DNA of 64,000 bases from sequence record PZ172995.1; one strand, 5' to 3'. A model generated the notes under the pieces. It was not told the DNA's origin. It saw only the letters and a program-made list of their open reading frames with translations, and did not search any database. Below are positions 9,801-16,648 of the stretch, one piece after another. Numbering within the stretch: the first letter of the stretch is position 1; the number at the start of each line of letters is the position of its first letter. A program made the position numbers and the translations under genes. The stretch comes from a phage.

Positions 9801-11216
9801 ATGAGCGAATTATTTAAACATGCGCACCTTCATGCAGGTCGAACTGAAAATGGTGCTGTAAACCATACTTCATCAATGTCTGCTCTGGTGGACTTTTACA
9901 AAGCCGCTGGCTCAAGCCGTAGCAATGTAGAAATCTTACCAGACCTGTTCTACAAAGCTTTGCGTGAGGATGTTGATGTTGCAGTTCGTATTTTACTGCA
10001 TATGCGAGATGTACGAGAAGGTATGGGTGAGCGTAAAGCTTTCCGAACTGTTTTACTTCAAGCGATTGAAGATAAGGTTTTAGAACCTACACAGGTTCTT
10101 CGCATTATGGATAAGATTGCAGAACTTGGTCGTTTTGATGACTTCAAAATCTTCGTAGGCACTCGTTTTGAGACAGATGCCTTCAAACATTTAGAAGCAG
10201 CATTACTAGACCCTGCAACAGCAGGTTTAGCAGCTAAGTGGTTACCACGAGTAAAACCACGCCACAAACAGTTTGTAAAACGTTTCTGTAAGTTTGCAAA
10301 CTTAAGCGAGAAGGAGTATCGCACACTGTTATCTGCACTGTCTGATACGGTTGAGCAAAAAATCTCTGCTAATGAGTTTGGTAAGATTGACTACAGCAAG
10401 GTTCCTTCACTCGCTGCTGCACGTTACCAAAAACTCTTTAACCGTAAAGATGGGGAACGTTACAAAGCTTACGTTGAGTCACTCTCAAAGGGTGAGGCTA
10501 AGATTAACGCTGGTGCTGTTTACCCATACGATGTGATTAAATCTATCAAGTATGGTAATGCAGATGTGGCTAATGAGCAGTGGAAAGCACTACCAAACTG
10601 GATGGCAGAAGGTGAGAACATCTTGTGTATGACTGATGTTTCAAGTTCAATGTCTTGGGTGAGTCTTGGTTCAATCACTGCCCTTGATGTTGGTGTATCC
10701 CTTGCCTTGTATGTAGCAGAACGCAACACAGGTTGCTTTAAAGATGAGTTAATGGTCTATTCAACAAACCCTCATTTCATTGAACTGAGTGGTGATTTAC
10801 GAAACCGTCATCGTCAGGTAATGCGTCATGTTGAATATGGTTCAACTAACTTACAAGCAGCTTTTGACCGCATTCTTGAAATAGGTAAGAGAAACAACTT
10901 GACTCAGAAAGATATGCCAAGTAAGCTTATTATCTTCTCTGATATGGAGTTTAATCAGGTTGATGGTGCAAATGGTCGTACAAACTTTGAAGCAATTCAG
11001 AGTAAGTACAAAAAAGCTGGATACGAAATGCCACAACTAGTATTCTGGTACTTAGCAAACCGTAATGGTACTTGCGAAGTATCTGTTAAGGATAATGGTG
11101 TAGCAATGGTATCAGGGTTCTCTCCAGCCACTTTAAAAGCTCTGCTTGGTGGTGAGAAGTTTGACCCAATCAGCGTAATGCTCAAAGCAGTAATGATTGA
11201 CCGTTACATCTGGTAA
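9801..11216 (+). CDS. DUF2828-like protein with C-terminal vWA/MIDAS-like motif (possible TROVE/Ro60-like fold)
   Basis: N-terminal RTENGAVNHTSSMSAL motif and DVSSSMS (DxSxS) motif in the 471-aa translation; strong RBS; family assignment from recalled signatures, not a search. Confidence 0.6.
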   Translation: MSELFKHAHLHAGRTENGAVNHTSSMSALVDFYKAAGSSRSNVEILPDLFYKALREDVDVAVRILLHMRDVREGMGERKAFRTVLLQAIEDKVLEPTQVLRIMDKIAELGRFDDFKIFVGTRFETDAFKHLEAALLDPATAGLAAKWLPRVKPRHKQFVKRFCKFANLSEKEYRTLLSALSDTVEQKISANEFGKIDYSKVPSLAAARYQKLFNRKDGERYKAYVESLSKGEAKINAGAVYPYDVIKSIKYGNADVANEQWKALPNWMAEGENILCMTDVSSSMSWVSLGSITALDVGVSLALYVAERNTGCFKDELMVYSTNPHFIELSGDLRNRHRQVMRHVEYGSTNLQAAFDRILEIGKRNNLTQKDMPSKLIIFSDMEFNQVDGANGRTNFEAIQSKYKKAGYEMPQLVFWYLANRNGTCEVSVKDNGVAMVSGFSPATLKALLGGEKFDPISVMLKAVMIDRYIW

Positions 11217-11228
11217 AAAGTTTTAAAA

Positions 11229-11263
11229 AGGGTATTGACAATGTGTTTGATACCCTTTAATAT
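11229..11263 (+). promoter_or_regulatory. sigma70-like promoter (TTGACA, 17 nt, TAATAT) with flanking palindrome, upstream of tRNA array
   Basis: TTGACA 11235-11240, TAATAT 11258-11263; AAGGGTAT / ATACCCTT inverted repeat around the -35. Confidence 0.6.
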
Positions 11264-11324: not shown

Positions 11325-11353
11325 TTGACAACCACTAAAAAATAATGTTAAAG
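11325..11353 (+). promoter_or_regulatory. second sigma70-like promoter (TTGACA, 18 nt, TAAAGT) upstream of tRNA array
   Basis: Same -35, spacer and -10 pattern as the promoter at 9732. Confidence 0.5.
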
Positions 11354-11380
11354 TGGTTACATAGAGTTTGAAAAGTTTAT

Positions 11381-11457
11381 CTCTGTTTAGCTCAGCTTGG
11401 TAGAGCGTTCCGTTTGGGGCGGTAAGGCCGGAGGTTCAAGTCCTCCAACAGAGACCA
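11381..11457 (+). tRNA. tRNA-Pro (TGG)
   Basis: Hand-folded cloverleaf: acceptor CTCTGTT/AACAGAG, anticodon loop TTTGGGG, T-arm GGAGG-TTCAAGT-CCTCC, CCA encoded. Confidence 0.75.
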
Positions 11458-11464
11458 AATTAAT

Positions 11465-11542
11465 GTTCCAGTAGACAAAACGGTAAAGTCACCACTCTTT
11501 CAAAGTGGATATTTGAGGGTTCAAATCCCTTCTGGAACGCCA
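11465..11542 (+). tRNA. tRNA-Glu (TTC)
   Basis: Acceptor GTTCCAG/CTGGAAC, anticodon stem CCACT/AGTGG with loop CTTTCAA, T-loop TTCAAAT, CCA encoded. Confidence 0.75.
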
Positions 11543-11547
11543 GTTTT

Positions 11548-11623
11548 GACAGAAGACCAATTACAGCAAACTTAATCTACTCATCTGACACGAAATCGGA
11601 CAAAGAAGATATTTGGTCTGGTC
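11548..11623 (+). ncRNA. conserved hairpin element, copy 1 (basal stem CAGAAGACC / GGTCTGG, loop with CAGCAA)
   Basis: GACAGAAGACCA pairs with TGGTCTGGTC around a loop of about 50 nt; same stem in three further copies. Confidence 0.5.
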
Positions 11624-11632
11624 ATTAAGAAT

Positions 11633-11709
11633 TGCGGGTATAGAGAAAGGGCGTCTCACATGTCTCATTAGCATGGTATCGGCAGGTTCGACTCCTGCAC
11701 CCGCCTCCA
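11633..11709 (+). tRNA. tRNA-Met (CAT), irregular acceptor stem
   Basis: D-stem GAGA/TCTC, anticodon stem CATGT/GCATG with loop CTCATTA, T-arm GCAGG-TTCGACT-CCTGC; acceptor pairing imperfect. Confidence 0.55.
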
Positions 11710-11714
11710 ATTTT

Positions 11715-11778
11715 GCAGAAGACCGTATGCAGCAACAAACTACTTTTTTTGCGGATAAAAGAAAAAACACGGTCTGGC
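11715..11778 (+). ncRNA. conserved hairpin element, copy 2
   Basis: GCAGAAGACCG ... CAGCAA ... CGGTCTGGC. Confidence 0.5.
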
Positions 11779-11788
11779 AATATATTAA

Positions 11789-11865
11789 GGTTAGGAAGCA
11801 CATAAGGTATGTGCGGTCGCCTGTTAAGCGAATGGCACAGGGTTCGAATCCCTGACTAACCGCCA
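11789..11865 (+). tRNA. tRNA-Asn (GTT)
   Basis: D-stem GCAC/GTGC, anticodon loop CTGTTAA, T-arm CAGGG-TTCGAAT-CCCTG, CCA encoded. Confidence 0.7.
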
Positions 11866-11874
11866 AATTTAAAT

Positions 11875-11962
11875 GTGTCGTTATCCCGTAGATGGTAGCG
11901 GTGGGGACTGTAAATCCCTTGTCATTGAGACTCGGTAGGTTCGACTCCTACACGGCACACCA
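11875..11962 (+). tRNA. tRNA-Tyr (GTA), long variable arm
   Basis: Acceptor GTGTCGT/ACGGCAC, anticodon loop CTGTAAA, long variable arm, T-arm GTAGG-TTCGACT-CCTAC, CCA encoded. Confidence 0.7.
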
Positions 11963-11968
11963 AATAAA

Positions 11969-12046
11969 GGTTATGTAGTTTAATCTGGTTAAAATACTCC
12001 CCTGTCACGGGAGATGATGAGGGTTCAAATCCCTTCGTAACCGCCA
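11969..12046 (+). tRNA. tRNA-Asp (GTC)
   Basis: Anticodon stem CTCCC/GGGAG with loop CTGTCAC, T-arm GAGGG-TTCAAAT-CCCTT, CCA encoded. Confidence 0.8.
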
Positions 12047-12129
12047 AATTATAATAAGTATTTCAAAATGATGTTTGAGAGGGCTATTTAGCCCCTCCCT
12101 TAAAGAGTTCTTACGAGTATTCTTTAAAG

Positions 12130-12212
12130 GAGCAGAAGACCAAATTCAGCAAGTACGTATGATATTTTCAAGCCAATTTAATTTTGAAAAAATTTAAAAC
12201 TTGGTCTGGCTC
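12130..12212 (+). ncRNA. conserved hairpin element, copy 3
   Basis: GAGCAGAAGACCAA pairs with TTGGTCTGGCTC; loop contains CAGCAA. Confidence 0.5.
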
Positions 12213-12221
12213 AACAAATTT

Positions 12222-12357
12222 ACAGAAGACCGTTTACAGCAAAACTTAAACAATCTATTTCTCCGGTAAAGAAAAGGCGAAGGTTCGATTCCTTCACTCG
12301 GCAGATGTCGAGTTGGTGTAATGGTAGCACTTAAGATGACAAACAACGGTCTGGTAA
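12222..12357 (+). ncRNA. conserved hairpin element, copy 4, enclosing a tRNA-like module (T-arm hairpin, acceptor-like hairpin, D-arm-like hairpin); candidate Y-RNA-like RNA
   Basis: Basal stem ACAGAAGACCGTT / AACGGTCTGGTA; inside: GAAGG-TTCGATT-CCTTC (12279-12295), ACTCGGC-AGAT-GTCGAGT (12296-12313), GTGT-AATGGTA-GCAC (12316-12330). Confidence 0.45.
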
Positions 12358-12503
12358 TTATCTTTGTAGGTGAGCTATTAAGCTTACTTGTGAGTATGCG
12401 ACCACAAAGGGTGAAAGGGCAAATTCTAGATTTAAACCCAACAAGGCACATCGCTACAGACCTTAAGCAAGTCTGGGTAGCTTATCTACAAAGATAATTT
12501 AAT

Positions 12504-12579
12504 GGAAGTGTAGCAGAATGGTGATGCGGCAGACTTTTAATCTGACAGGCGATGGGTTCGAATCCCTCCACTTCTACCA
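12504..12579 (+). tRNA. tRNA-Lys (TTT)
   Basis: Acceptor GGAAGTG/CACTTCT, anticodon loop CTTTTAA, T-loop TTCGAAT, CCA encoded; paralogous to the Lys(CTT) tRNA at 13820. Confidence 0.7.
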
Positions 12580-12583
12580 ATAT

Positions 12584-12660
12584 GGTTCAGTCGCAGATAA
12601 GGTAATGCAGGGGTCTCATAAGCCCTATGAATGTGGGTTCGATTCCCATCTGAACCTCCA
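12584..12660 (+). tRNA. tRNA with CAT anticodon (Met or lysidine-Ile)
   Basis: Acceptor GGTTCAG/CTGAACC, anticodon loop CTCATAA, T-arm GTGGG-TTCGATT-CCCAT, CCA encoded. Confidence 0.7.
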
Positions 12661-12661
12661 A

Positions 12662-12737
12662 GCTGGTATAGTTAAGAAGGTTATAACACTCCCCTGATAA
12701 GGGAATATCGGTGGTTCGATTCCACCTACCAGTACCA
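12662..12737 (+). tRNA. tRNA-Ile (GAT)
   Basis: D-stem GTTA/TAAC, anticodon loop CTGATAA, T-arm GGTGG-TTCGATT-CCACC, CCA encoded. Confidence 0.75.
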
Positions 12738-12752
12738 ATTTCAATAAAGTTG

Positions 12753-12781
12753 TTGACATTGATATGTGACTATTTTATAGT
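12753..12781 (+). promoter_or_regulatory. sigma70-like promoter (TTGACA, 17 nt, TATAGT) inside the tRNA array
   Basis: TTGACA 12753-12758, TATAGT 12776-12781; downstream about 300 nt has no tRNA or ORF. Confidence 0.55.
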
Positions 12782-12832
12782 AACTGAAAATGATTCAGCA
12801 TATGTATAATTCAAACACCAATACATGAGCGT

Positions 12833-12904
12833 TAGACGTAACACAATGTGGGGAAATTTGTTGTACATATTCTGAATAGTTTTCGTTGCGTAGCGTCTAT
12901 TTTG
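12833..12904 (+). terminator. putative structured element ending in a T-run (possible sRNA 3' end)
   Basis: TAGACG ... CGTCTA stem enclosing about 55 nt, followed by TTTTGC. Confidence 0.3.
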
Positions 12905-13074
12905 CAAATTTAAAATAAATGCAAACGACAATGTTTTTCTGGCAGTAGCTTGATAGGCTAAACACCAGTGAGGTCTTCCAATCCCTCATCAAAGAATTTG
13001 GCGTACTAGCCCACGGTATGATTAATAAGGTGGGCATCTTTAAGGGCTTTCTAAGAGAGTCTTTAAAGATTAAT

Positions 13075-13151
13075 GCACCCTTAGTTCAATTGGATAGAGC
13101 AACGGTCTTCTAAATCGTTAGTTACAGGTTCGAATCCTGTAGGGTGTGCCA
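13075..13151 (+). tRNA. tRNA-Arg (TCT)
   Basis: Acceptor GCACCCT/AGGGTGT, anticodon loop CTTCTAA, T-arm ACAGG-TTCGAAT-CCTGT, CCA encoded. Confidence 0.75.
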
Positions 13152-13293
13152 AATAGTTAGCAGATTGCTTAGACGACCTTATCGGGTCTCCGCGTAAGGA
13201 GGTGGTCTGTATCTCATGTTTTCCAGAACATGTAAATAATCTGAGAAGGGGCTTTACAGTGTTGCGAAAATACGGTAAGCTTCGAATTATAGT

Positions 13294-13376
13294 GTGGGAC
13301 GATGTTAAGACTCTAAGGCATGAGCAACGGCCTCCAAAACCGTTTCAAAGGGGTTCAACTCCTCCGTCCCATGCCA
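13294..13376 (+). tRNA. tRNA-Trp (CCA)-like, atypical length and D-region
   Basis: Acceptor GTGGGAC/GTCCCAT, anticodon loop CTCCAAA, T-loop TTCAACT, CCA encoded; about 7 nt longer than canonical. Confidence 0.45.
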
Positions 13377-13389
13377 AAGTCTTATTAGG

Positions 13390-13477
13390 GGTAGGTAGCG
13401 GCTAATGGCAGCCAAACAGTCTTGAAAACTGTTGCAACTGTAGAGATACGGTGAGGGTTCGACTCCTTTACTTACCA
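13390..13477 (+). tRNA. tRNA-Ser (TGA), long variable arm
   Basis: Acceptor GGTAGGT/ACTTACC, anticodon stem ACAGT/ACTGT with loop CTTGAAA, variable arm about 20 nt, T-loop TTCGACT. Confidence 0.7.
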
Positions 13478-13634
13478 CCTAATAAGATTTTACACCGTCC
13501 ATGCTTGCTCGCATTTTCGGTTTATCCCTCGTGTATTGTCGTACACACTGATAAAGCACCTAGTAGGTGTCACGGAGAAGAGATAATATCAAGCTCTCCA
13601 AAGGTTCTAGTCACCGGATTAAACAAGACTATGC

Positions 13635-13656
13635 AAAGACCAATTTAGGTCTTTTT
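13635..13656 (+). terminator. putative Rho-independent terminator
   Basis: AAAGACC-AATTTA-GGTCTTT followed by TTT. Confidence 0.45.
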
Positions 13657-13735
13657 AGAGGGCTTCTAAGGTTATTACAGCTTGTTGTGGAACCTTGTTG
13701 CTTAGGTTCTTAGAAGTTCTCTAAAAAGATTTAAT

Positions 13736-13812
13736 GCACCTATAGCCCAACTGGTAGAGGCAGCAGACTTAGAATCTGCTCAGTGTGAGTTCGAATCTCT
13801 CTAGGTGTACCA
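13736..13812 (+). tRNA. tRNA with TAG anticodon (Leu by anticodon), short variable arm
   Basis: Acceptor GCACCTA/TAGGTGT, anticodon stem GCAGA/TCTGC with loop CTTAGAA, T-loop TTCGAAT, A73, CCA encoded. Confidence 0.65.
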
Positions 13813-13819
13813 AATTAAT

Positions 13820-13895
13820 GCAGGTGTAGCAAAATGGTTATGCGGCTGACTCTTAATCAGTAAGACGATGGGTTCAATTCCCTCCACCTGTACCA
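13820..13895 (+). tRNA. tRNA-Lys (CTT)
   Basis: Acceptor GCAGGTG/CACCTGT, anticodon loop CTCTTAA, T-loop TTCAATT, CCA encoded. Confidence 0.7.
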
Positions 13896-13901
13896 AACAT
13901 T

Positions 13902-13977
13902 GGGGTCATAGTTTATATGGTTAAAATTCGAGTTTTGCAAACTTGGGAACTGAGTTCAATTCTCAGTGACTCCACCA
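13902..13977 (+). tRNA. tRNA-Ala (TGC)
   Basis: Acceptor GGGGTCA/TGACTCC, anticodon loop TTTGCAA, T-arm CTGAG-TTCAATT-CTCAG, CCA encoded. Confidence 0.7.
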
Positions 13978-13983
13978 ATTAGT

Positions 13984-14058
13984 GCATCCATAGTTTAAAC
14001 GGGAAAATTACAGTCTTCCAAACTGAGGTTGAGGGTTCGATTCCCTCTGGATGCTCCA
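13984..14058 (+). tRNA. tRNA-Gly (TCC)
   Basis: Acceptor GCATCCA/TGGATGC, anticodon loop CTTCCAA, T-loop TTCGATT, CCA encoded. Confidence 0.75.
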
Positions 14059-14065
14059 AATTAAT

Positions 14066-14141
14066 GCTCCTATCGTATAATTGGCTATTACGGTTGCCTT
14101 GTAAGTAACTTATCAGGGTTCGAATCCTTGTGGGAGCACCA
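14066..14141 (+). tRNA. tRNA-Thr (TGT)
   Basis: Acceptor GCTCCTA/TGGGAGC, anticodon loop CTTGTAA, T-arm CAGGG-TTCGAAT-CCTTG, CCA encoded. Confidence 0.7.
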
Positions 14142-14238
14142 ATTTAGAGGTCAAGTGAAAGACCGCTTTGAGTCAACTGAAGACCGTAACAAATCCCACG
14201 GAGTTGAGTTAGCGGCACAACTTCAGACCTCTTTCCAC

Positions 14239-14313
14239 ACTCGCTTAGTTTATATGGTAAAACATCACCCTTACAAGATGAAGAAAAAGGTTCAAGTCCT
14301 TTAGTGAGTACCA
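14239..14313 (+). tRNA. tRNA-Val (TAC)
   Basis: D-stem GTTT/AAAC, anticodon loop CTTACAA, T-arm AAAGG-TTCAAGT-CCTTT, CCA encoded. Confidence 0.7.
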
Positions 14314-14314
14314 T

Positions 14315-14392
14315 GTTCCAGTATCCCAATTGGCAGAGGATGCAAGCTCAAACCTTGCACTAGTGACGGTTCGAATCCGTCTTGGAACACCA
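14315..14392 (+). tRNA. tRNA with CAA anticodon (Leu by anticodon), short variable arm
   Basis: Acceptor GTTCCAG/TTGGAAC, anticodon stem GCAAG/CTTGC with loop CTCAAAC, T-arm GACGG-TTCGAAT-CCGTC, A73, CCA encoded. Confidence 0.65.
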
Positions 14393-14397
14393 ATTTT

Positions 14398-14473
14398 GCA
14401 GGATTAGTTCAAATGGATAGAGCAACAGTCTACGAAGCTGTTAATAGGGGTTCGAGTCCCTTATCCTGCGCCA
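14398..14473 (+). tRNA. tRNA-Arg (ACG)
   Basis: Acceptor GCAGGAT/ATCCTGC, anticodon loop CTACGAA, T-loop TTCGAGT, CCA encoded. Confidence 0.75.
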
Positions 14474-14491
14474 GATAAGTAAGAGTGATTT

Positions 14492-14734
14492 ATGCAAACA
14501 TTAATCGTCGTTGAACATGAAAATTCCAATAGCATTGAGTTTGTAAGGGTTCCCACTATAGATACCCACATTTTCTTGAAAGTAGGCTGGGAATGTGACC
14601 CAATAAGAGTAGAAAAATTTATTGGTCATTACTTTGGTGGAAGACAACTTAAAAGTGTTAATTTTGAGACAATGTTACCAGAAAACTCAGAAACAAATAA
14701 TAATGTTTACCTCCTTACAAGGATTAGACAATGA
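14492..14734 (+). CDS. hypothetical protein encoded inside the tRNA array
   Basis: ORF with RBS; ATGA overlap with the next gene. Confidence 0.5.
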   Translation: MQTLIVVEHENSNSIEFVRVPTIDTHIFLKVGWECDPIRVEKFIGHYFGGRQLKSVNFETMLPENSETNNNVYLLTRIRQ

Positions 14735-15288
14735 GATATTTGAAGTATGTTTCATGGATTTTCTTAGCTTTGCTAGAGCCATTTGCAGCAATCTTAGCAG
14801 TCATCTTAGCACCTTTTGTAGTTCTATTCTACAGTGAGAAGAGAGGACACTTACCTTTCGGCTTCAGATGGATGGAAACATATGATAACCCAATTGATGG
14901 TGATAAAGGTCATGTCGAACGATGGGCTAAGATTAGAAAGATTGGTAAGCTTGGTATCTATATGCAGAGAGTTGGTTGGCTCTGGAGAAACAAAGCTTAT
15001 AACTTCTCTTACCATGTGTTAGGAAGAGATGTAAAAGATGTTACTAAGTGGAAAGGTAATATCAATGTAAGTTCTAACCCTGAAGATAATCAGACAGGTT
15101 ATCTCCTAATGTGGAACAGTAATGCTTGGGGATTATTCGCTTTTATCCCATCAATTAAACTCTTTGGTAAGCAATTCTACTGGAGAATTTATGTTGGATG
15201 GAAACTTAAAAGTGTTGTTCCAAAAGAAAGAGCATTCTCAAGGGAAAGAGTTATGTTGGCATTCTTTATTCATCCACTGAGAAAGTAA
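14731..15288 (+). CDS. hypothetical Trp-rich membrane protein encoded inside the tRNA array
   Basis: N-terminal hydrophobic helix WIFLALLEPFAAILAVILAPFVVLF in the 185-aa translation. Confidence 0.6.
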   Translation: MRYLKYVSWIFLALLEPFAAILAVILAPFVVLFYSEKRGHLPFGFRWMETYDNPIDGDKGHVERWAKIRKIGKLGIYMQRVGWLWRNKAYNFSYHVLGRDVKDVTKWKGNINVSSNPEDNQTGYLLMWNSNAWGLFAFIPSIKLFGKQFYWRIYVGWKLKSVVPKERAFSRERVMLAFFIHPLRK

Positions 15289-15296
15289 AGATTTAA

Positions 15297-15372
15297 AGGG
15301 GATTAGTTTACAAGGTTAAAACCTCGGTCTTTGAAATCGAAGAAGTTGGTTCAATTCCAACATCCCCCGCCA
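15297..15372 (+). tRNA. tRNA-Gln (TTG)
   Basis: Anticodon stem TCGGT/ATCGA with loop CTTTGAA, T-arm GTTGG-TTCAATT-CCAAC, CCA encoded. Confidence 0.7.
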
Positions 15373-15374
15373 AT

Positions 15375-15453
15375 GCTCCATTACTCCAATTGGCAGAGAG
15401 GCCAGACTTAAAATCTGTGTTATGTATCGGTTCGAATCCGATATGGAGTACCA
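15375..15453 (+). tRNA. tRNA with TAA anticodon (Leu by anticodon), short variable arm
   Basis: Acceptor GCTCCAT/ATGGAGT, anticodon loop CTTAAAA, T-arm ATCGG-TTCGAAT-CCGAT, A73, CCA encoded. Confidence 0.65.
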
Positions 15454-15458
15454 AATTT

Positions 15459-15534
15459 AGCGGTATAGCATAACTGGCAATGCAGCAGTCTCTGAAGCTG
15501 TCTTATTAAGGTTCAAATCCTTATGCCGCTGCCA
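15459..15534 (+). tRNA. tRNA-Gln (CTG)
   Basis: D-stem GCAT/ATGC, anticodon loop CTCTGAA, T-arm TAAGG-TTCAAAT-CCTTA, CCA encoded. Confidence 0.7.
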
Positions 15535-15565
15535 CTTCTAAGGATTCTTACGAGAGTCCTTAAAT

Positions 15566-15641
15566 GTGGCCTTATCATAAATGGTAATGACCCATGCTGT
15601 GAACATGGTCTATACGGGTTCAAATCCCGTAGGTCACCCCA
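15566..15641 (+). tRNA. tRNA-His (GTG)
   Basis: D-stem TCAT/ATGA, anticodon stem CCATG/CATGG with loop CTGTGAA, T-arm ACGGG-TTCAAAT-CCCGT, CCA encoded. Confidence 0.75.
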
Positions 15642-15646
15642 ATTTA

Positions 15647-15723
15647 TAGTCCAAGTAGCTTATATGGTTAAAGCGCGTGTCTGAAAAACATGAGAAGAGG
15701 GTTCAAATCCCACTGGACTACCA
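15647..15723 (+). tRNA. tRNA-Phe (GAA)
   Basis: Acceptor TAGTCCA/TGGACTA, anticodon stem CGTGT/ACATG with loop CTGAAAA, T-loop TTCAAAT; linker lengths slightly irregular. Confidence 0.65.
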
Positions 15724-15739
15724 ATTTCAAAGGTGCTTA

Positions 15740-16474
15740 ATGAAAGAGATGACAGGACAAGGTAAGGAGATTTTTAATCTCTTAAAAACCGGTAGAGGGT
15801 TTTCTAATCCCCTTATTACTGGTGCAGCAGTTCTCGGTGGAACCGTAGCTGCCTCTACATCACTTGTAAGCTCTATTAGCTCTGTAACAGACCCTACAAT
15901 AAAGGATAAACTTGTTGCCGCTGGACTTACAACAGTTCTGCTTAACAGCTTTACAACGAGTCTGACAAGCACTACATCCACCACTAAGACATTGACAGAT
16001 TACGGTCAAAAATCAATTGATGAGTTTTCATCACGTATGCAGGTAGCAAAAGGATATTCCAATGTTATGGGTGCAGCAGGAGAGCAAGTTGGTTGTACAC
16101 CATTTAGTGGTATTATGGGTGTTGCTACAGAATATGGTCAAAAAGCTATTGACACGATTAACAACACGTTAGACAGTGTTAACGGCGTGTTAAGTGACTT
16201 ACAGGATGCTATTGATAAAGGTCTTGATACTGTTTCTGATTTAGCTAACCAAGCTGTTAGCAAGATTAATGAAGGTATCTCGAAGATTACAGCTTATGCA
16301 GATGAAGTTGTGCAGATGATTGAAGAAGAAGCTGCCCTTATTGCAGAGTACCTTAAAACGAATATCAATGGGTTCTTAGCAGGTATTTTACCAGACTGGT
16401 TTGATGATGCTTGTAAAACTGGTGTGATTGACACTATTGCAACACCAGAAATGAAGAACGCATTACAGAAATAA
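15740..16474 (+). CDS. hypothetical Ser/Thr-rich protein encoded inside the tRNA array
   Basis: Track start 15677 lies inside tRNA-Phe; ATG at 15740 has AAAGGTG RBS; low-complexity S/T region then a helical C-terminal half. Confidence 0.6.
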   Translation: MKEMTGQGKEIFNLLKTGRGFSNPLITGAAVLGGTVAASTSLVSSISSVTDPTIKDKLVAAGLTTVLLNSFTTSLTSTTSTTKTLTDYGQKSIDEFSSRMQVAKGYSNVMGAAGEQVGCTPFSGIMGVATEYGQKAIDTINNTLDSVNGVLSDLQDAIDKGLDTVSDLANQAVSKINEGISKITAYADEVVQMIEEEAALIAEYLKTNINGFLAGILPDWFDDACKTGVIDTIATPEMKNALQK

Positions 16475-16475
16475 T

Positions 16476-16568
16476 GGAAGATTAACCCTAAAAGGTAAGG
16501 GAGCAGTTTGCTAAACTGCCAGTAGCTGAGAAATCGGTGTACCAGTTCAAGTCTGGTATCTTCCCCCA
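16476..16568 (+). tRNA. tRNA-Ser (GCT), long variable arm
   Basis: Acceptor GGAAGAT/ATCTTCC, anticodon stem GCAGT/ACTGC with loop TTGCTAA, variable arm about 21 nt, T-arm ACCAG-TTCAAGT-CTGGT, CCA encoded. Confidence 0.75.
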
Positions 16569-16572
16569 ATTT

Positions 16573-16648
16573 GAATCCGTGACAGAAATGGCTATGTGCC
16601 TGTCTGCAAAACAGGTTTATAAGGGTTCGAGTCCCTTCGGATTCTCCA
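16573..16648 (+). tRNA. tRNA-Cys (GCA)
   Basis: Acceptor GAATCCG/CGGATTC, anticodon stem CCTGT/ACAGG with loop CTGCAAA, T-arm AAGGG-TTCGAGT-CCCTT, CCA encoded. Confidence 0.8.

What the first reader, a model, noticed from the sequence alone, without database searches (positions are those of the whole stretch)
11381..16648. Large tRNA array of about 27 genes covering all 20 amino acids
Hand folding identifies tRNAs for Pro, Glu, Met, Asn, Tyr, Asp, Lys (TTT and CTT), a second CAT tRNA, Ile, Arg (TCT and ACG), Trp, Ser (TGA and GCT), Leu-type (TAG, CAA, TAA), Ala, Gly, Thr, Val, Gln (TTG and CTG), His, Phe and Cys, nearly all with encoded CCA. A near-complete set is unusual and fits a phage that buffers itself against host tRNA limitation or tRNA-cleaving defences (anticodon nucleases), particularly since it also encodes its own dNTP synthesis and replication machinery.
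Basis: partly seen in the sequence, partly recalled or inferred. Interest (0 to 1): 0.55.

Follow-up and report, generated by a model that had tools for sequence, protein, structure and literature searches.

The report
Felix-O1-type phage tRNA array, with Y-RNAs
This is the well-known block of about 27 transfer-RNA genes carried by Felix-O1-like phages of E. coli and Salmonella; it is ordinary as a tRNA array, but it also hides four unannotated small RNAs that look like partners of a Ro60-like protein encoded just upstream.

Summary
None lie elsewhere in the 64 kb.

The 27th gene (Trp, 13294-13376) is missed by ARAGORN and Rfam. It is nevertheless a conserved, covarying cloverleaf with loop CUCCAAA, G73 and an encoded CCA. 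An invariant 10-nt insert lies before its D stem.

The region is 93-98% identical to more than 200 Felixounavirus genomes with annotated tRNAs. The same array in a sister genus has a published analysis. The array is therefore already known, and "unusual" overstates it.

Codon compensation is supported: AGA makes up 43% of Arg codons against 2% in E. coli. Evasion of anticodon nucleases is not supported.

Only 40% of the block is tRNA. Four spacer RNAs (E1-E4, 11547-12357) share a covarying bulged helix and a UNCAGCAA motif. E4 is a permuted tRNA mimic (T arm, closed acceptor hairpin, D arm). Covariance models built only from RNAs beside distant homologues of the upstream gene recover exactly these four elements. 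That gene (9801-11216) is predicted to adopt a Ro60 fold. Together they form a phage Ro60-like/Y-RNA-like module, a new member of a known kind.

A tmRNA-like tag frame (ANDNVFLAVA**) in another spacer remains unexplained.

The parts
9801..11216 (+). Gene for a 471-aa Ro60-like protein (Pfam DUF2828 + DUF7788/vWA with a DVSSS MIDAS motif; PHROG 850 'RNA-binding protein')
   Evidence: Pfam and PHROGs. AF2 with a 40-sequence alignment gives pLDDT 86.7. The top 12 Foldseek PDB hits are all Ro60/TROVE over the full length, E 2e-8 to 2e-6. Homologues in mycobacteriophages are annotated 'Ro-like RNA binding protein'.
11235..11263 (+). Sigma-70-like promoter ahead of the array (TTGACA-17-TAATAT)
   Evidence: 10/12 matches. 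A consensus match only.
11325..11354 (+). Second sigma-70-like promoter ahead of the array (TTGACA-18-TAAAGT, TG extended)
11381..11457 (+). tRNA-Pro (TGG)
   Evidence: ARAGORN; Rfam 57.7 bits
11465..11542 (+). tRNA-Glu (TTC)
   Evidence: Rfam 60.6 bits
11547..11624 (+). E1, short Y-RNA-like element: stem UGAC/GUCA, AGA/G bulge, stem AGACCAA/UUGGUCU, motif UUACAGCAA
   Evidence: Model R1, built only from distant loci, scores 29.6 bits, E 3e-4. Helix covariation.
11633..11709 (+). tRNA with CAT anticodon (Met-type; U1.C72 mismatch, G2-C71, C3-G70, U37). Atypical.
   Evidence: ARAGORN; below the Rfam gathering score; sequence
11713..11780 (+). E2, short Y-RNA-like element (UUGC/GCAA; AGACCGU/ACGGUCU; AUGCAGCAA)
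   Evidence: R1 22.4 bits, E 0.015
11789..11865 (+). tRNA-Asn (GTT)
   Evidence: Rfam 48.0 bits
11875..11962 (+). tRNA-Tyr (GTA), long variable arm
   Evidence: only a sub-threshold Rfam match
11969..12046 (+). tRNA-Asp (GTC)
   Evidence: Rfam 65.2 bits
12130..12212 (+). E3, short Y-RNA-like element (GAGC/GCUC; AGACCAA/UUGGUCU; AUUCAGCAA)
   Evidence: R1 16.8 bits, E 0.28, the third and last hit in the 64 kb. Orthologues in Mooglevirus score 25.9-31.5 bits.
12220..12357 (+). E4, long Y-RNA-like element. The same handle encloses a hairpin (UUUCU CCGGUAA AGAAA), a T arm (GAAGG UUCGAUU CCUUC), a closed acceptor-like hairpin (ACUCGGC agau GUCGAGU) and a D arm (GUGU AAUGGUA GCAC). It is a permuted tRNA mimic of YrlA type.
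   Evidence: R2, built only from 10 distant RNAs, scores 56.9 bits, E 5.6e-9; the next best hit anywhere is <=25.8 bits. 27 pairs are 100% paired in 12 orthologues, with 3 compensatory pairs in the acceptor-like hairpin.
12356..12499 (+). Long conserved hairpin RNA of unknown role (22-bp closing stem, 100-nt interior)
   Evidence: MFE -48.6, z -5.6, 0/200 shuffles. GUAG/CUAC becomes GCAG/CUGC in Mooglevirus.
12504..12579 (+). tRNA-Lys (TTT)
   Evidence: Rfam 54.4 bits
12584..12660 (+). Second CAT tRNA (Met, or Ile2 if lysidine-modified; identity unresolved)
   Evidence: Rfam 54.3 bits
12662..12737 (+). tRNA-Ile (GAT)
   Evidence: Rfam 63.4 bits
12753..12781 (+). Internal sigma-70-like promoter (TTGACA-17-TATAGT, 11/12)
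12877..13074 (+). Conserved structured spacer RNA carrying a tmRNA-like tag frame at 12921-12956 (GCA AAC GAC ... = ANDNVFLAVA, then two stops). No tRNA-like domain was found.
   Evidence: Weak Rfam tmRNA-family matches.
13075..13151 (+). tRNA-Arg (TCT)
   Evidence: Rfam 62.8 bits
13294..13376 (+). Non-canonical tRNA-Trp-like gene (CCA anticodon, G73, encoded CCA, C31.A39, 10-nt linker before a 3-bp D stem)
   Evidence: Missed by ARAGORN; 23-bit tRNA-Sec-model match.
13390..13479 (+). tRNA-Ser (TGA), 3' end CCT rather than CCA
   Evidence: Rfam 32.5 bits
13736..13812 (+). tRNA-Leu (TAG), 77 nt, no long variable arm
   Evidence: Rfam 57.3 bits
13820..13895 (+). tRNA-Lys (CTT)
   Evidence: Rfam 56.9 bits
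13902..13977 (+). tRNA-Ala (TGC)
   Evidence: Rfam 56.9 bits
13984..14058 (+). tRNA-Gly (TCC)
   Evidence: Rfam 59.6 bits
14066..14141 (+). tRNA-Thr (TGT)
   Evidence: Rfam 55.1 bits
14239..14313 (+). tRNA-Val (TAC)
   Evidence: Rfam 60.0 bits
14315..14392 (+). tRNA-Leu (CAA), 78 nt, no long variable arm
   Evidence: Rfam 43.7 bits
14398..14473 (+). tRNA-Arg (ACG)
   Evidence: Rfam 58.5 bits
14492..14734 (+). 80-aa ORF inside the array (PHROG 14202, unknown function)
14731..15288 (+). 185-aa ORF inside the array (Pfam DUF7338; called 'holin' in some records)
15297..15372 (+). tRNA-Gln (TTG)
   Evidence: Rfam 56.6 bits
15375..15453 (+). tRNA-Leu (TAA), 79 nt, no long variable arm
   Evidence: Rfam 47.5 bits
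15459..15534 (+). tRNA-Gln (CTG)
   Evidence: Rfam 58.7 bits
15566..15641 (+). tRNA-His (GTG)
   Evidence: Rfam 53.3 bits
15648..15723 (+). tRNA-Phe (GAA)
   Evidence: Rfam 45.0 bits
15740..16474 (+). 244-aa ORF inside the array (Pfam DUF7217, PHROG 2114, unknown function)
16476..16568 (+). tRNA-Ser (GCT)
   Evidence: Rfam 45.1 bits
16573..16648 (+). tRNA-Cys (GCA)
   Evidence: Rfam 56.4 bits
16811..16828 (+). First + strand terminator-like hairpin with a T-run after the array
   Evidence: There is none on the + strand inside the array.

Best explanation
The block is the conserved tRNA gene array of a Felix-O1-like myovirus (Felixounavirus). It sits between a Ro60-like gene and the terminase/late structural genes, and is read in the same direction as both.

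What it contains:
- 26 canonical tRNA genes and one non-canonical Trp-type gene.
- For every four-codon box, the single U34 tRNA. For two-codon boxes, G34 or U34/C34 tRNAs. Also Arg-ACG and two CAT tRNAs.
- This is close to a minimal self-sufficient decoding set.

How it most likely works (inferred):
- The array is transcribed from sigma-70-type promoters as long precursors that host RNase P and 3'-end enzymes cut up.
- It supplies tRNAs matched to the phage's AT-rich codon usage (AGA, NNA codons), so that phage proteins, especially late ones, can be made when host tRNAs are limiting or declining.

Interleaved with the first tRNAs are four Y-RNA-like RNAs (E1-E4).
- Each is closed by a conserved bulged helix followed by a single-stranded UNCAGCAA motif.
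- E4 displays a circularly permuted tRNA-like domain.
- They would be released as by-products of tRNA processing and bound by the Ro60-like protein encoded just upstream.
- The resulting phage Ro/Y-RNA particle would act on structured RNA. By analogy with Rsr/YrlA/PNPase and with phage phiLo Ro60/Yrl, the role would be quality control of the phage's own numerous, weakly folded tRNAs, or capture of a host exoribonuclease.

Shown here: the genes, the RNA structures, the family memberships and the gene-RNA linkage. Inferred: expression, processing, protein-RNA binding and physiological role.
For: tRNAs:
- 26 by ARAGORN and 24 by Rfam, at the stated coordinates.
- The Trp-type cloverleaf has 6 compensatory pairs.

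Identity of the array:
- 93-98% identity to Felixounavirus; 219 records cover at least 80% of the region.
- Records annotate the same 26 tRNAs.
- The array lies directly upstream of terminase, portal and head genes.

Codon match:
- AGA is 20-fold enriched; ACA, CCA, TCA, TTA and CTA are 2.6-3.6-fold enriched.
- Codons Watson-Crick cognate to the phage tRNAs are enriched over others (Mann-Whitney p=0.035).
- Published agreement for the same array in Sf14 (PMC12482277).

Transcription:
- Three strong promoter matches and no + strand terminator inside the array.

E elements:
- 64 instances in 16 genomes of three genera.
- The closing helix is 100% paired in 209 cells. 5 of 11 pairs have double changes. 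Slid controls give 19-47% paired.
- E4: 27 pairs, 100% paired.

Link to the protein:
- The protein has a Ro60 fold.
- RNAs with the same handle lie within 700 nt of distant homologues, on the gene's strand: 82 hits against 21 on the other strand; 55 of 75 loci.
- R1, built only from those distant RNAs, finds exactly E1-E3 in the 64 kb. R2 finds E4 at 56.9 bits.
- Neither model finds anything comparable in Kolesnikvirus loci, which have the syntenic array but no Ro-like gene at that position, or in 50 kb of E. coli.
- In mycobacteriophage Lumos, the gene annotated 'Ro-like RNA binding protein' is followed by a short, a long and a short element in that order: R1 18.9 bits, R2 79.8 bits (also Rfam YrlA 39.3 bits), R1 16.6 bits.

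Precedent:
- Chen et al. 2014 (PMC4201824) describe the YrlA order T arm, acceptor-like stem-loop, D arm, encoded next to Ro60.
- phiLo Ro60 binds two adjacent Y-like RNAs and host PNPase (PMC12135203).
Against: - There are no expression, processing, aminoacylation or binding data. All function is inferred.
- The codon test is only modestly significant, and its E. coli reference is 40 genes from one 50-kb segment.
- Rfam's YrlA model does not hit the window at all. It stays below its gathering score even in the distant loci: 24.7-39.3 bits against 69.
- The conserved motif (UNCAGCAA; CAGAAG at the bulge) is not the published Ro-binding motif (GNCGAAN0-1G / CGAA).
- The protein is not recognised as TROVE by Pfam, nor by HMMER against PDB sequences.
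- The Trp-type gene has a core geometry not seen in working tRNAs and shows a few pair-breaking changes in close relatives.
- No RNA ligase or polynucleotide kinase is annotated in a close relative, so a link to tRNA repair is not supported.
Confidence: 0.75

Rival explanations
1. The array is kept mainly as a counter-defence. The phage tRNAs replace host tRNAs cut by anticodon nucleases or other tRNA-targeting immune systems (PrrC, PARIS, retron Eco7-type effectors, Schlafen-like nucleases), and they resist cleavage because their sequences differ.
For: - Such rescue is documented for T5 and mycobacteriophage tRNAs (titles and abstracts of PMC10264068, PMC11555353 and PMC11464382).
- The set includes the usual targets: Lys-UUU, Tyr, Asn, Asp, His and Arg.
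- It also includes a Lys-CUU species that the Sf14 paper says the host lacks.
- A complete set would be robust to any single nuclease.
- A few loops are atypical: Pro UUUGGGG, Met-1 CUCAUUA, Leu-CAA CUCAAAC.
Against: - Nearly all anticodon loops have the ordinary CU-NNN-AA form.
- The dedicated study of the same array in Sf14 found loop differences in about half of the tRNAs, but judged them unlikely to confer resistance and rejected the hypothesis.
- The choice of isoacceptors tracks codon usage closely. Defence evasion alone does not predict this.
- No cleavage data exist for these tRNAs.
Confidence: 0.25
2. E1-E4 are not partners of the Ro60-like protein. They are spacer hairpins that merely guide precursor processing (RNase III/E sites), or decayed remnants of tRNA genes and of mobile-element ends. 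Their position next to the Ro-like gene is a coincidence of synteny.
For: - They sit exactly between tRNA genes.
- E4 contains tRNA parts and has been mis-annotated as a 131-nt 'tRNA-Thr GGT' in one record.
- Homing-endonuclease genes come and go in these spacers.
- Rfam YrlA does not recognise them.
Against: - The same handle and motif occur beside distant homologues of the protein in phages where no tRNA gene lies within 3 kb. About 51 of 75 loci have no tRNA gene, yet 55 of 75 have the RNA.
- Models built only from those distant RNAs pick out E1-E4, and nothing else, in 64 kb.
- Kolesnikvirus keeps the tRNA array but lacks both the gene (at the syntenic position) and the elements.
- The acceptor-like hairpin of E4 is closed by a loop and covaries fully. 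That is not how a decayed gene behaves.
Confidence: 0.12
3. The array is mostly evolutionary baggage or a host-range device. The tRNAs were picked up from hosts and are retained without much selective value in E. coli or Salmonella.
For: - Gene content varies between relatives: Felix O1 is credited with fewer tRNAs, HNH insertions occur, and the Trp gene is replaced in typing phage 8.
- The Sf14 study reports that the phage tRNAs are predicted to be less stable than the host's.
Against: - Gene order and sequence are conserved across four genera.
- Compensatory changes maintain the stems.
- The isoacceptor choice is systematic, with one U34 tRNA per four-codon box, and matches phage codon usage.
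- The Sf14 study excluded host-range expansion.
Confidence: 0.08

Closest known systems
tRNA arrays of Ounavirinae phages (Felix O1 / Felixounavirus; Mooglevirus Sf14 with '26 tRNAs for 19 amino acids', PMC12482277; Kolesnikvirus)
   Same: - Same genes in the same order, at 93-98% nucleotide identity for Felixounavirus.
- Same position, upstream of the DUF7217 ORF and terminase.
- Same short Leu tRNAs and Lys-CUU.
   Different: Nothing material for the 26 canonical genes.

The published counts omit the non-canonical Trp-type gene. None of the records or papers I could search annotate E1-E4, the long hairpin or the tag-like element ('none' under the match in most records).
Large tRNA clusters of other virulent phages (T4 with 8 tRNAs, T5 with about 24; from general knowledge)
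   Same: - Clustered, co-oriented tRNA genes.
- Short spacers and small ORFs.
- Extra stable small RNAs of unknown role (the T4 species 1 and 2 RNAs).
- Codon-compensation and defence-evasion hypotheses.
   Different: No sequence relationship was tested. The present set is nearly complete and is tied to a Ro60-like gene.
Bacterial Ro60 (Rsr) with YrlA/YrlB Y RNAs (Chen et al. 2014, PMC4201824; Rfam RF02553)
   Same: - A ring-plus-vWA Ro60 fold for the protein.
- Several small RNAs encoded beside it on the same strand.
- One of them carries a tRNA-like domain in the order T arm, closed acceptor-like stem-loop, D arm, inside a 5'/3' closing helix with an asymmetric bulge.
   Different: - The protein belongs to Pfam DUF2828/DUF7788, not TROVE.
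- The conserved single-stranded motif is UNC(A/C)GCAA rather than GNCGAAN0-1G.
- Rfam YrlA gives no hit in the window and only sub-threshold hits in relatives.
- The RNAs are embedded in a tRNA array rather than in an rsr-rtcBA operon.
Phage Ro60/Y-like RNA modules: Thermus phage phiLo Ro60 with Yrl1/Yrl2 (PMC12135203); mycobacteriophage 'Ro-like RNA binding protein' loci
   Same: - A phage-encoded Ro60-like protein with two or more adjacent stem-bulge-stem RNAs.
- The mycobacteriophage protein is a sequence homologue: 34% identity, E 2e-70.
- Its flanking RNAs are hit by the same R1 and R2 models.
   Different: - In phiLo the RNAs lie upstream of the gene and carry a CGAA bulge motif. No tRNA array is involved.
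- Binding and PNPase recruitment are shown there. Nothing is shown here.
tmRNA (for the tag-like element at 12877-13074 only)
   Same: - An in-frame GCA AAC GAC... of ten codons ending in -LAVA.
- Two stop codons sitting in a hairpin loop.
- An A-rich stretch before the first codon and no start codon in Felixounavirus.
- Conservation at the peptide level, through synonymous changes, across four genera.
   Different: - No tRNA-like domain, no CCA end and no G3.U70 acceptor stem.
- ARAGORN and Rfam do not call it.

Membership tests
Bacterial-type tRNA genes | Cloverleaf recognised by dedicated tRNA detectors | tested here: met
   26 by ARAGORN; 24 above the Rfam RF00005 gathering score.
Bacterial-type tRNA genes | The 27th (Trp) gene recognised by the same detectors | tested here: not met
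   No ARAGORN call. Only 23 bits with the tRNA-Sec model. Its support comes instead from covariation.
Bacterial-type tRNA genes | Mature, modified, aminoacylated product | not testable with these tools
   Needs tRNA-seq, acid gels and charging assays from infected cells.
Felixounavirus tRNA array | Nucleotide identity and gene order shared with annotated Felixounavirus genomes | tested here: met
   93-98% identity over all 5.4 kb. 219 records cover at least 80%. The tRNA order in OQ743992 and PP948675 is identical.
tRNA-Trp | CCA anticodon in a 7-nt loop with U33 | tested here: met
   Loop CUCCAAA is conserved in 9 of 10 distinct orthologues.
tRNA-Trp | E. coli TrpRS identity elements G73 and A1-U72 (from established knowledge of E. 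coli tRNA-Trp identity) | tested here: met
   G73 is invariant. A1-U72 occurs in 8 of 10 orthologues; the window has G1.U72.
tRNA-Trp | Canonical core: 2 nt between the acceptor and D stems, and a 4-bp D stem | tested here: not met
   An invariant 10-nt linker GAUGUUAAGA and a 3-bp D stem. 31:39 is C.A.
Ro60 / TROVE proteins | Alpha-helical repeat ring followed by a vWA domain with a MIDAS motif | tested here: met
   AF2 pLDDT 86.7, pTM 0.87. The 12 best PDB matches are all Ro60, full length, TM 0.53-0.64. The DVSSS motif is invariant in alignment A1.
Ro60 / TROVE proteins | Sequence-level match to the TROVE family or to solved Ro60 chains | tested here: not met
   Pfam gives DUF2828, DUF7788 and a weak VWA_2 match, not TROVE. 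phmmer and hmmsearch against PDB sequences find nothing.
Ro60 / TROVE proteins | Binds Y RNA through the conserved helix, and misfolded RNA in the central hole | not testable with these tools
   Needs gel shifts, immunoprecipitation or a structure.
YrlA-type Y RNA (Rfam RF02553; Chen et al. 2014) | Score at or above the Rfam gathering threshold (69 bits) | tested here: not met
   No match on E1-E4 even at E<=10. Related RNAs in distant loci score 24.7-39.3 bits.
YrlA-type Y RNA (Rfam RF02553; Chen et al. 2014) | 5'/3' closing helix enclosing a T arm, a closed acceptor-like stem-loop and a D arm, in that order | tested here: met
   E4 structure. 100% of 324 cells are paired, with 3 compensatory pairs. 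The published order is quoted.
YrlA-type Y RNA (Rfam RF02553; Chen et al. 2014) | Encoded next to a Ro60-type gene on the same strand | tested here: met
   E1 begins 331 nt after the gene's stop codon. The same linkage holds in 55 of 75 distant loci and in phage Lumos.
YrlA-type Y RNA (Rfam RF02553; Chen et al. 2014) | GNCGAAN0-1G motif in the 5' strand of the Ro-binding module | tested here: not met
   The window has (G/A)CAGAAG at the bulge and UNCAGCAA after the helix.
YrlA-type Y RNA (Rfam RF02553; Chen et al. 2014) | tRNA-type modifications / RNase P and CCA-adding enzyme substrates | not testable with these tools
   Biochemistry is needed.
tmRNA | Tag reading frame starting at a resume codon without a start codon, ending in a hydrophobic tail and stop codon(s) | tested here: met
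   ANDNVFLAVA** in Felixouna-, Moogle- and Suspvirus, and ANDAQFLAVA** in Kolesnikvirus. Four changes are synonymous and one changes a stop to a stop. An in-frame TAG lies 10 codons upstream in the window.
tmRNA | tRNA-like domain (acceptor stem with G3.U70, T arm, CCA end) | tested here: not met
   None in 12738-13074. ARAGORN reports no tmRNA. Rfam tmRNA models reach only 15-35 bits, driven by the tag stretch.

The most novel reading that the evidence does not exclude
Felix-O1-like phages, together with hundreds of other phages that carry a DUF2828-type gene, encode a divergent Ro60-like protein and a modular family of small RNAs.

The RNAs share one protein-binding 'handle': a helix AG(G/A)NNNN/NNNN(U/C)CU, a single-stranded UNC(A/C)GCAA motif and a 3' G. 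The handle displays different tRNA-like cargos: permuted T/acceptor/D domains, acceptor-less tRNAs, or a second conserved module.

In Ounavirinae this particle is genetically and transcriptionally fused to the head of the tRNA array. It would act on the phage's own tRNA supply, through quality control, protection or processing, or it would redirect a host exoribonuclease.

Together with the hidden non-canonical tRNA-Trp and the tRNA-less tmRNA-like tag RNA, the 'tRNA array' would then be a broader phage toolkit for taking over translation and RNA surveillance.
Probability: 0.55. Interest if true: 0.65.

Novelty: new member of a known kind. Interest (0 to 1): 0.42.

Why it matters
As a tRNA array it adds nothing new. 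It is a near-duplicate of annotated Felixounavirus genomes, and its likely role (codon-matched tRNA supply for late genes) has been argued in print for a sister genus.

Three things are useful beyond that.

1. Standard tools undercount the set. A conserved, covarying Trp-type gene would complete the 20 amino acids, so the published '19 amino acids' may be an artefact of the detectors.

2. 60% of the block is not tRNA, and part of it is a Ro60-like/Y-RNA-like module that no searched record or paper annotates in these phages. Felix O1-type phages grow on E. coli K-12 and Salmonella. They would therefore be a far more tractable system than Deinococcus, mycobacteriophages or a Thermus phage for asking what Ro/Y-RNA particles do, and whether they are functionally tied to tRNA supply. 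In about a third of the distant loci the homologous gene also has tRNA genes within 3 kb, always on its own strand.

3. The two covariance models built here give a way to annotate this RNA family in the roughly 700 phage genomes that carry the protein.

Tried and rejected
1. E4 as a genuine permuted tRNA gene that must be circularised and recut, as in Cyanidioschyzon. Rejected. The acceptor-like stem is capped by a short loop (GNRA-type tetraloops in distant relatives). The loop of the anticodon-like hairpin varies freely: CCGGUAA, CUGGUAA, CUUAUAA, or a 5-nt loop in Moogle. The architecture is that of YrlA.

2. E elements as terminal inverted repeats of a mobile element. Rejected. The helix covaries between paralogues, and the same handle occurs in unrelated phages.

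3. Single-sequence AlphaFold of the 471-aa protein. Useless at pLDDT 45; it needed the alignment.

4. Sequence searches of the protein against PDB. No Ro60 hit; only fold comparison showed it.

5. Rfam YrlA on the window. No hit.

6. A complete tmRNA around the tag-like frame. I looked for a tRNA-like domain in the window, in Mooglevirus and in Kolesnikvirus with ARAGORN and Rfam. None was found. I also considered a conventional small ORF. An in-frame ATG exists only in Kolesnikvirus; it is a TAG in the window. The overlapping ATG frame is not conserved.

7. A tRNA-repair context (RNA ligase, polynucleotide kinase) that would tie the Ro-like module to nuclease damage. Nothing is annotated in a close relative's full genome.

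8. Assigning the two CAT tRNAs to initiator, elongator Met or Ile2. The features are mixed and I could not decide.

9. Literature searches for DUF2828, and for Felix O1 or Felixounavirus together with Ro60, Y RNA or TROVE. No paper links them. [quoted passage not shown]

Full report
**1. The observation**

ARAGORN on the whole 64-kb window finds 26 tRNA genes. All are on the + strand and all lie between 11381 and 16648, with none elsewhere.

Rfam's tRNA model exceeds its gathering score for 24 of them. Met-CAT at 11633 and Tyr fall below it.

25 of the 27 genes encode the 3' CCA. Ser-TGA ends in CCT.

The three Leu tRNAs are 77-79 nt and lack the long variable arm.

**2. The Trp gene**

Detectors do not call it. 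Rfam gives only a 23-bit match to the tRNA-Sec model at 13296-13370.

The sequence at 13294-13376 folds into:
- a 7-bp acceptor stem;
- a 3-bp D stem with a GG-containing loop;
- a 5-bp anticodon stem, extended by a C.A pair, around CUCCAAA;
- a T arm with UUCAACU;
- G73 and CCA.

Ten distinct orthologues from Felixouna-, Moogle- and Suspvirus keep 98.4% of 190 cells paired. Six of the 19 pairs change on both sides:
- D stem: U-A to A-U;
- anticodon stem: AACGG/CCGUU to GUAAG/CUUAC;
- T stem: G-C to U-A.

Versions slid by 1-3 columns give 30-51% paired and no double changes.

What makes the gene invisible to detectors is an invariant 10-nt linker (GAUGUUAAGA) between the acceptor and D stems, where tRNAs normally have two nucleotides.

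Two relatives support the assignment of this slot to Trp. In E. coli O157 typing phage 8 the same slot holds a different, ARAGORN-detectable 71-nt tRNA-Trp followed by an extra ORF. Kolesnikvirus has a canonical tRNA-Trp elsewhere in its array.

I conclude that this is a real, selected, Trp-type tRNA-like gene. Whether it is charged and used cannot be told from sequence.

**3. What the block is**

The 5.4 kb are 93-98% identical to Felixounavirus genomes. There are 346 matching records, and 219 of them cover at least 80% of the region. Well-annotated relatives list the same 26 tRNAs in the same order.

The array lies between a 471-aa gene and the terminase, portal and head genes. All of these are on one strand.

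Mooglevirus and Suspvirus share the arrangement. Kolesnikvirus has a syntenic but more compact array.

[quoted passage not shown] It concludes that the tRNAs serve late-gene translation, and it rejects host-range expansion and nuclease escape (PMC12482277).

As a tRNA array, this is already known.

**4. How the tRNAs most likely work**

The window is 39% GC, against 52% for a 50-kb E. coli K-12 segment. I compared 73 window ORFs (17,833 codons) with 40 annotated E. coli genes:
- AGA is 42.7% of Arg codons against 2.1%.
- ACA, CCA, TCA, TTA and CTA are 2.6-3.6-fold enriched.
- GCA, GGA and GTA are 1.8-1.9-fold enriched.

The phage carries exactly the U34 tRNA for each four-codon box, Arg-UCU, both Lys, both Gln and all three non-CUG Leu species. 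Codons that are Watson-Crick cognate to the phage set are enriched relative to the others (Mann-Whitney p=0.035).

With ordinary wobble, 76% of phage codons are readable by the set. If U34 reads all four codons of a box, only CGG remains uncovered, plus AUA unless one CAT tRNA is lysidine-modified. That last step is my inference.

Three strong sigma-70-type promoter matches precede or lie in the array (11235, 11325, 12753). No + strand terminator-like site occurs before 16811. This suggests long precursors cut by host RNase P and 3'-end enzymes (inference).

For the anticodon-nuclease idea I found no positive evidence. Anticodon loops are almost all of the ordinary CU-NNN-AA form. It remains a rival because such rescue is documented for other phages.

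**5. What else is in the block**

tRNAs occupy 2,116 of 5,268 nt. Three ORFs of unknown function take about 1.5 kb: an 80-aa ORF, DUF7338 and DUF7217. The remaining 1.6 kb or so are conserved non-coding spacers.

Four of these spacers caught my eye because they repeat the motif CAGAAGACCnnnUnCAGCAA ... nnnGGUCUGG. Folding gives one architecture for all four:
- a 4-bp lower stem;
- an asymmetric bulge (AGA opposite G);
- a 7-bp upper stem AGACCnn/nnGGUCU;
- the single-stranded motif;
- a variable interior.

Across 16 genomes of three genera there are 64 instances and 19 distinct helices. All 209 cells are paired. Five of the 11 pairs change on both sides, including three of the four pairs of the lower stem, which my extraction did not select for. 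Slid controls give 19-47% paired.

The fourth element, E4 (12220-12357), encloses in this order:
- a 5-bp/7-nt hairpin;
- a perfect T arm;
- a 7-bp stem closed by a 4-nt loop, whose two strands would be the 3' and 5' acceptor strands;
- a D arm.

In 12 orthologues all 324 cells of 27 pairs are paired. The acceptor-like hairpin is completely rewritten: ACUCGGC/GUCGAGU, ACACGUU/GGCGUGU and ACCCUUC/GAAGGGU.

**6. The link to the upstream gene**

T arm, closed acceptor-like stem-loop, D arm, inside a 5'/3' helix, is the published anatomy of bacterial YrlA Y RNAs. Those are encoded next to Ro60 genes (Chen et al. 2014, PMC4201824; Rfam consensus).

The gene ending 331 nt before E1 (9801-11216) is Pfam DUF2828 + DUF7788 with a weak vWA match and a DxSxS motif. 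It is called 'RNA-binding protein' by PHROGs and some records.

Sequence searches against PDB find nothing. An AlphaFold model built on 40 homologues has pLDDT 86.7 and pTM 0.87. Its 12 best Foldseek matches in the PDB are all Ro60 proteins, matched over their full length (E 2e-8 to 2e-6, TM 0.53-0.64): Thermus phage phiLo, Xenopus and Deinococcus. After these come isolated vWA domains at E>2e-3.

tblastn finds homologues in 710 of 50,697 phage records. These include 95 mycobacteriophages in which the homologue is annotated 'Ro-like RNA binding protein' (34% identity, E 2e-70).

**7. An independent test of the link**

I fetched 75 viral contigs encoding distant homologues (39-47% identity), each with 3 kb of flank.

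A simple structural scan found T-arm / closed-hairpin / D-arm modules beside several of these genes. There were 19 hits on the gene's strand and 3 on the other. Rfam YrlA gives significant but sub-threshold matches on the same elements, at 24.7-39.2 bits.

These RNAs share a handle with E1-E4: a helix AG(G/A)nnnn/nnnn(U/C)CU, then U(U/A)NC(A/C)GCAA, and a G after the 3' strand. Within 700 nt of the gene the pattern occurs 82 times on its strand against 21 on the other. It is present in 55 of the 75 loci.

I then built two covariance models using only RNAs from those distant loci.

R1 (24 short RNAs):
- In the whole window, on both strands, it gives exactly three hits at E<=10: E1 (29.6 bits, E 3e-4), E2 (22.4 bits, E 0.015) and E3 (16.8 bits, E 0.28).
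- In two Mooglevirus loci the same three elements score 25.9-43.8 bits.
- In a complete 87-kb Felixounavirus genome they are the top three hits.
- In two Kolesnikvirus loci and in 50 kb of E. coli there is no hit.

R2 (10 long RNAs):
- It scores E4 at 56.9 bits (E 5.6e-9). The Mooglevirus orthologues score 66.3 and 50.4 bits.
- The next best match in 155 kb is 25.8 bits.

Kolesnikvirus keeps the array but has no Ro-like gene at the syntenic position, and it has no E element.

In mycobacteriophage Lumos the 'Ro-like' gene is followed at once by an R1 hit, an R2 hit and another R1 hit. The R2 hit scores 79.8 bits (E 7e-15) and is also a 39.3-bit Rfam YrlA match.

E1-E4 therefore belong to an RNA family that travels with this protein family. 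It overlaps the phage Y-like RNAs reported in 2014.

**8. What the module probably does**

This part is entirely by analogy.
- In Deinococcus, Y RNA tethers Ro60 to PNPase.
- In phage phiLo, Ro60 binds two adjacent Y-like RNAs and host PNPase, and dampens its activity (PMC12135203).

Here the RNAs sit between tRNA genes. RNase P cleavage at the next tRNA, together with 3' trimming back to the helix, would release them (inference).

In 24 of the 75 distant loci tRNA genes also lie within 3 kb of the gene. Every one of those tRNA genes is on the gene's strand.

A role in surveillance or protection of the phage's many tRNAs, which the Sf14 study predicts to be less stable than the host's, or in capturing a host exonuclease, is the most economical reading. 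I found no RNA ligase or kinase annotation that would point to repair.

**9. Novelty and score**

- The tRNA array is already known.
- The hidden Trp-type gene is a small correction to the literature's count.
- The Ro60-like/Y-like module is a new member of a known kind. Phage Ro/Y RNPs are known from mycobacteriophages and phiLo. The variant features here are a DUF2828-type protein, a different conserved motif and embedding in a tRNA array.
- In the records and papers I could search, nothing annotates these RNAs in Felix-O1-like phages. My literature access is partial.
- I score overall interest at 0.42. It is low for the finding as written and moderate for what lies inside it.

Noticed in passing
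window 12877-13074 (tag frame 12921-12956); also L004 5856, L087 5339, L090 2028: Behind its own strong promoter (12753-12781) lies a conserved structured RNA. It carries GCA AAC GAC AAU GUU UUU CUG GCA GUA GCU UGA UAG = ANDNVFLAVA**. The first nine bases are the same as in E. coli ssrA (from memory of that sequence). The stop codons sit in a hairpin loop, an A-rich run precedes the frame, and there is no in-frame start codon.

Kolesnikvirus has ANDAQFLAVA**, reached through synonymous changes. Several Rfam tmRNA models hit weakly. No tRNA-like domain exists.

It could be a tmRNA mimic, a decoy or a two-piece system. Unexplained.
   Followed up: partly
window 12356-12499: A roughly 145-nt RNA with a 22-bp closing stem lies directly after E4 and before tRNA-Lys. 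MFE is -48.6 kcal/mol, z = -5.6, and 0 of 200 shuffles fold as well. A compensatory GUAG/CUAC to GCAG/CUGC change is seen in Mooglevirus. There is no Rfam match. Function unknown.
   Followed up: partly
window 13736-13812, 14315-14392, 15375-15453: All three Leu tRNAs (UAG, CAA, UAA) are class-I sized: 77-79 nt with 5-7-nt variable loops. They keep the Leu-type 3-bp D stem with an 11-nt loop, and A73. Bacterial Leu tRNAs normally have a long variable arm. The same is true in Kolesnikvirus (77-78 nt).
   Followed up: partly
window 11633-11709 and 12584-12660: There are two CAT-anticodon tRNAs, both with U73. The first has a U1.C72 mismatch with G2-C71 and C3-G70 (initiator-like acceptor end), but U37 and an AU-rich anticodon stem, and it fails the Rfam threshold. 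The second has G27.U43 and three G-C pairs in the anticodon stem. Which of them is Met, fMet or lysidine-Ile could not be decided.
   Followed up: partly
window 13820-13895: tRNA-Lys (CUU) is 82% identical to the neighbouring phage tRNA-Lys (UUU) (family D10). According to the Sf14 paper it has no host counterpart. AAG is 1.6-fold enriched in phage genes.
   Followed up: no
window 12098-12130, 13036-13070, 13645-13734, 15536-15565: A recurring hairpin with a (U)UCUUACGAG / UUCUAAGAG-type loop (for example CCUUAAAGAGUUCUUACGAGUAUUCUUUAAAGG) sits just upstream of E3 and of tRNAs Arg-TCT, Leu-TAG and His. It is also present in Kolesnikvirus. It may be a processing or regulatory signal.
   Followed up: no
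L002 1286-1714; L006 560-964; window 12782-12876 versus L003-L005: The spacers are hot spots for insertions. An HNH homing endonuclease lies between Tyr and Asp in SLAM_phiST56. In typing phage 8 an extra ORF comes together with a replaced tRNA-Trp. A segment of about 90 nt after the internal promoter is present in the window but absent in REP7 and Mooglevirus.
   Followed up: partly
L013 2276-2370, L014 2737-2836, L019 149-280, L022 1411-1517, L025 1265-1373, L039 2734-2828; L063 2734-2833, L068 2758-2853: In distant phages the same RNA handle carries other cargos. One is a conserved module CCUUUCUGGAGGGGAAAG(C/U)AAAAACUCGCCAA. Another is a normal-order D-arm / anticodon-arm / T-arm tRNA body whose acceptor stem is replaced by the handle. 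The handle looks like a portable display module.
   Followed up: partly
L005 6017-6145 (Moogle); L087 5083-5255 (Hena2); L087 3029-3099: Long tRNA-like genes have a proper acceptor stem, T arm and G73-CCA end, but 50-100 nt of extra sequence in the middle. Hena2 also has an ARAGORN 'tRNA-???' with a 2-nt anticodon upstream of tRNA-Pro. These were not analysed further.
   Followed up: no
window 14731-15288 and 15740-16474: Two conserved protein genes are nested in the array: DUF7338, annotated 'holin' in some records, and DUF7217, with weak tape-measure / GTP-binding-domain PHROG matches. DUF7217 keeps its place before Ser-GCT in all four genera.
   Followed up: no
window 13376-13389 and 13478-13491: A 14-nt inverted repeat (AAAGUCUUAUUAGG / CCUAAUAAGAUUUU) brackets tRNA-Ser (UGA), the one tRNA without an encoded CCA. 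It would extend the acceptor stem in the precursor.
   Followed up: no
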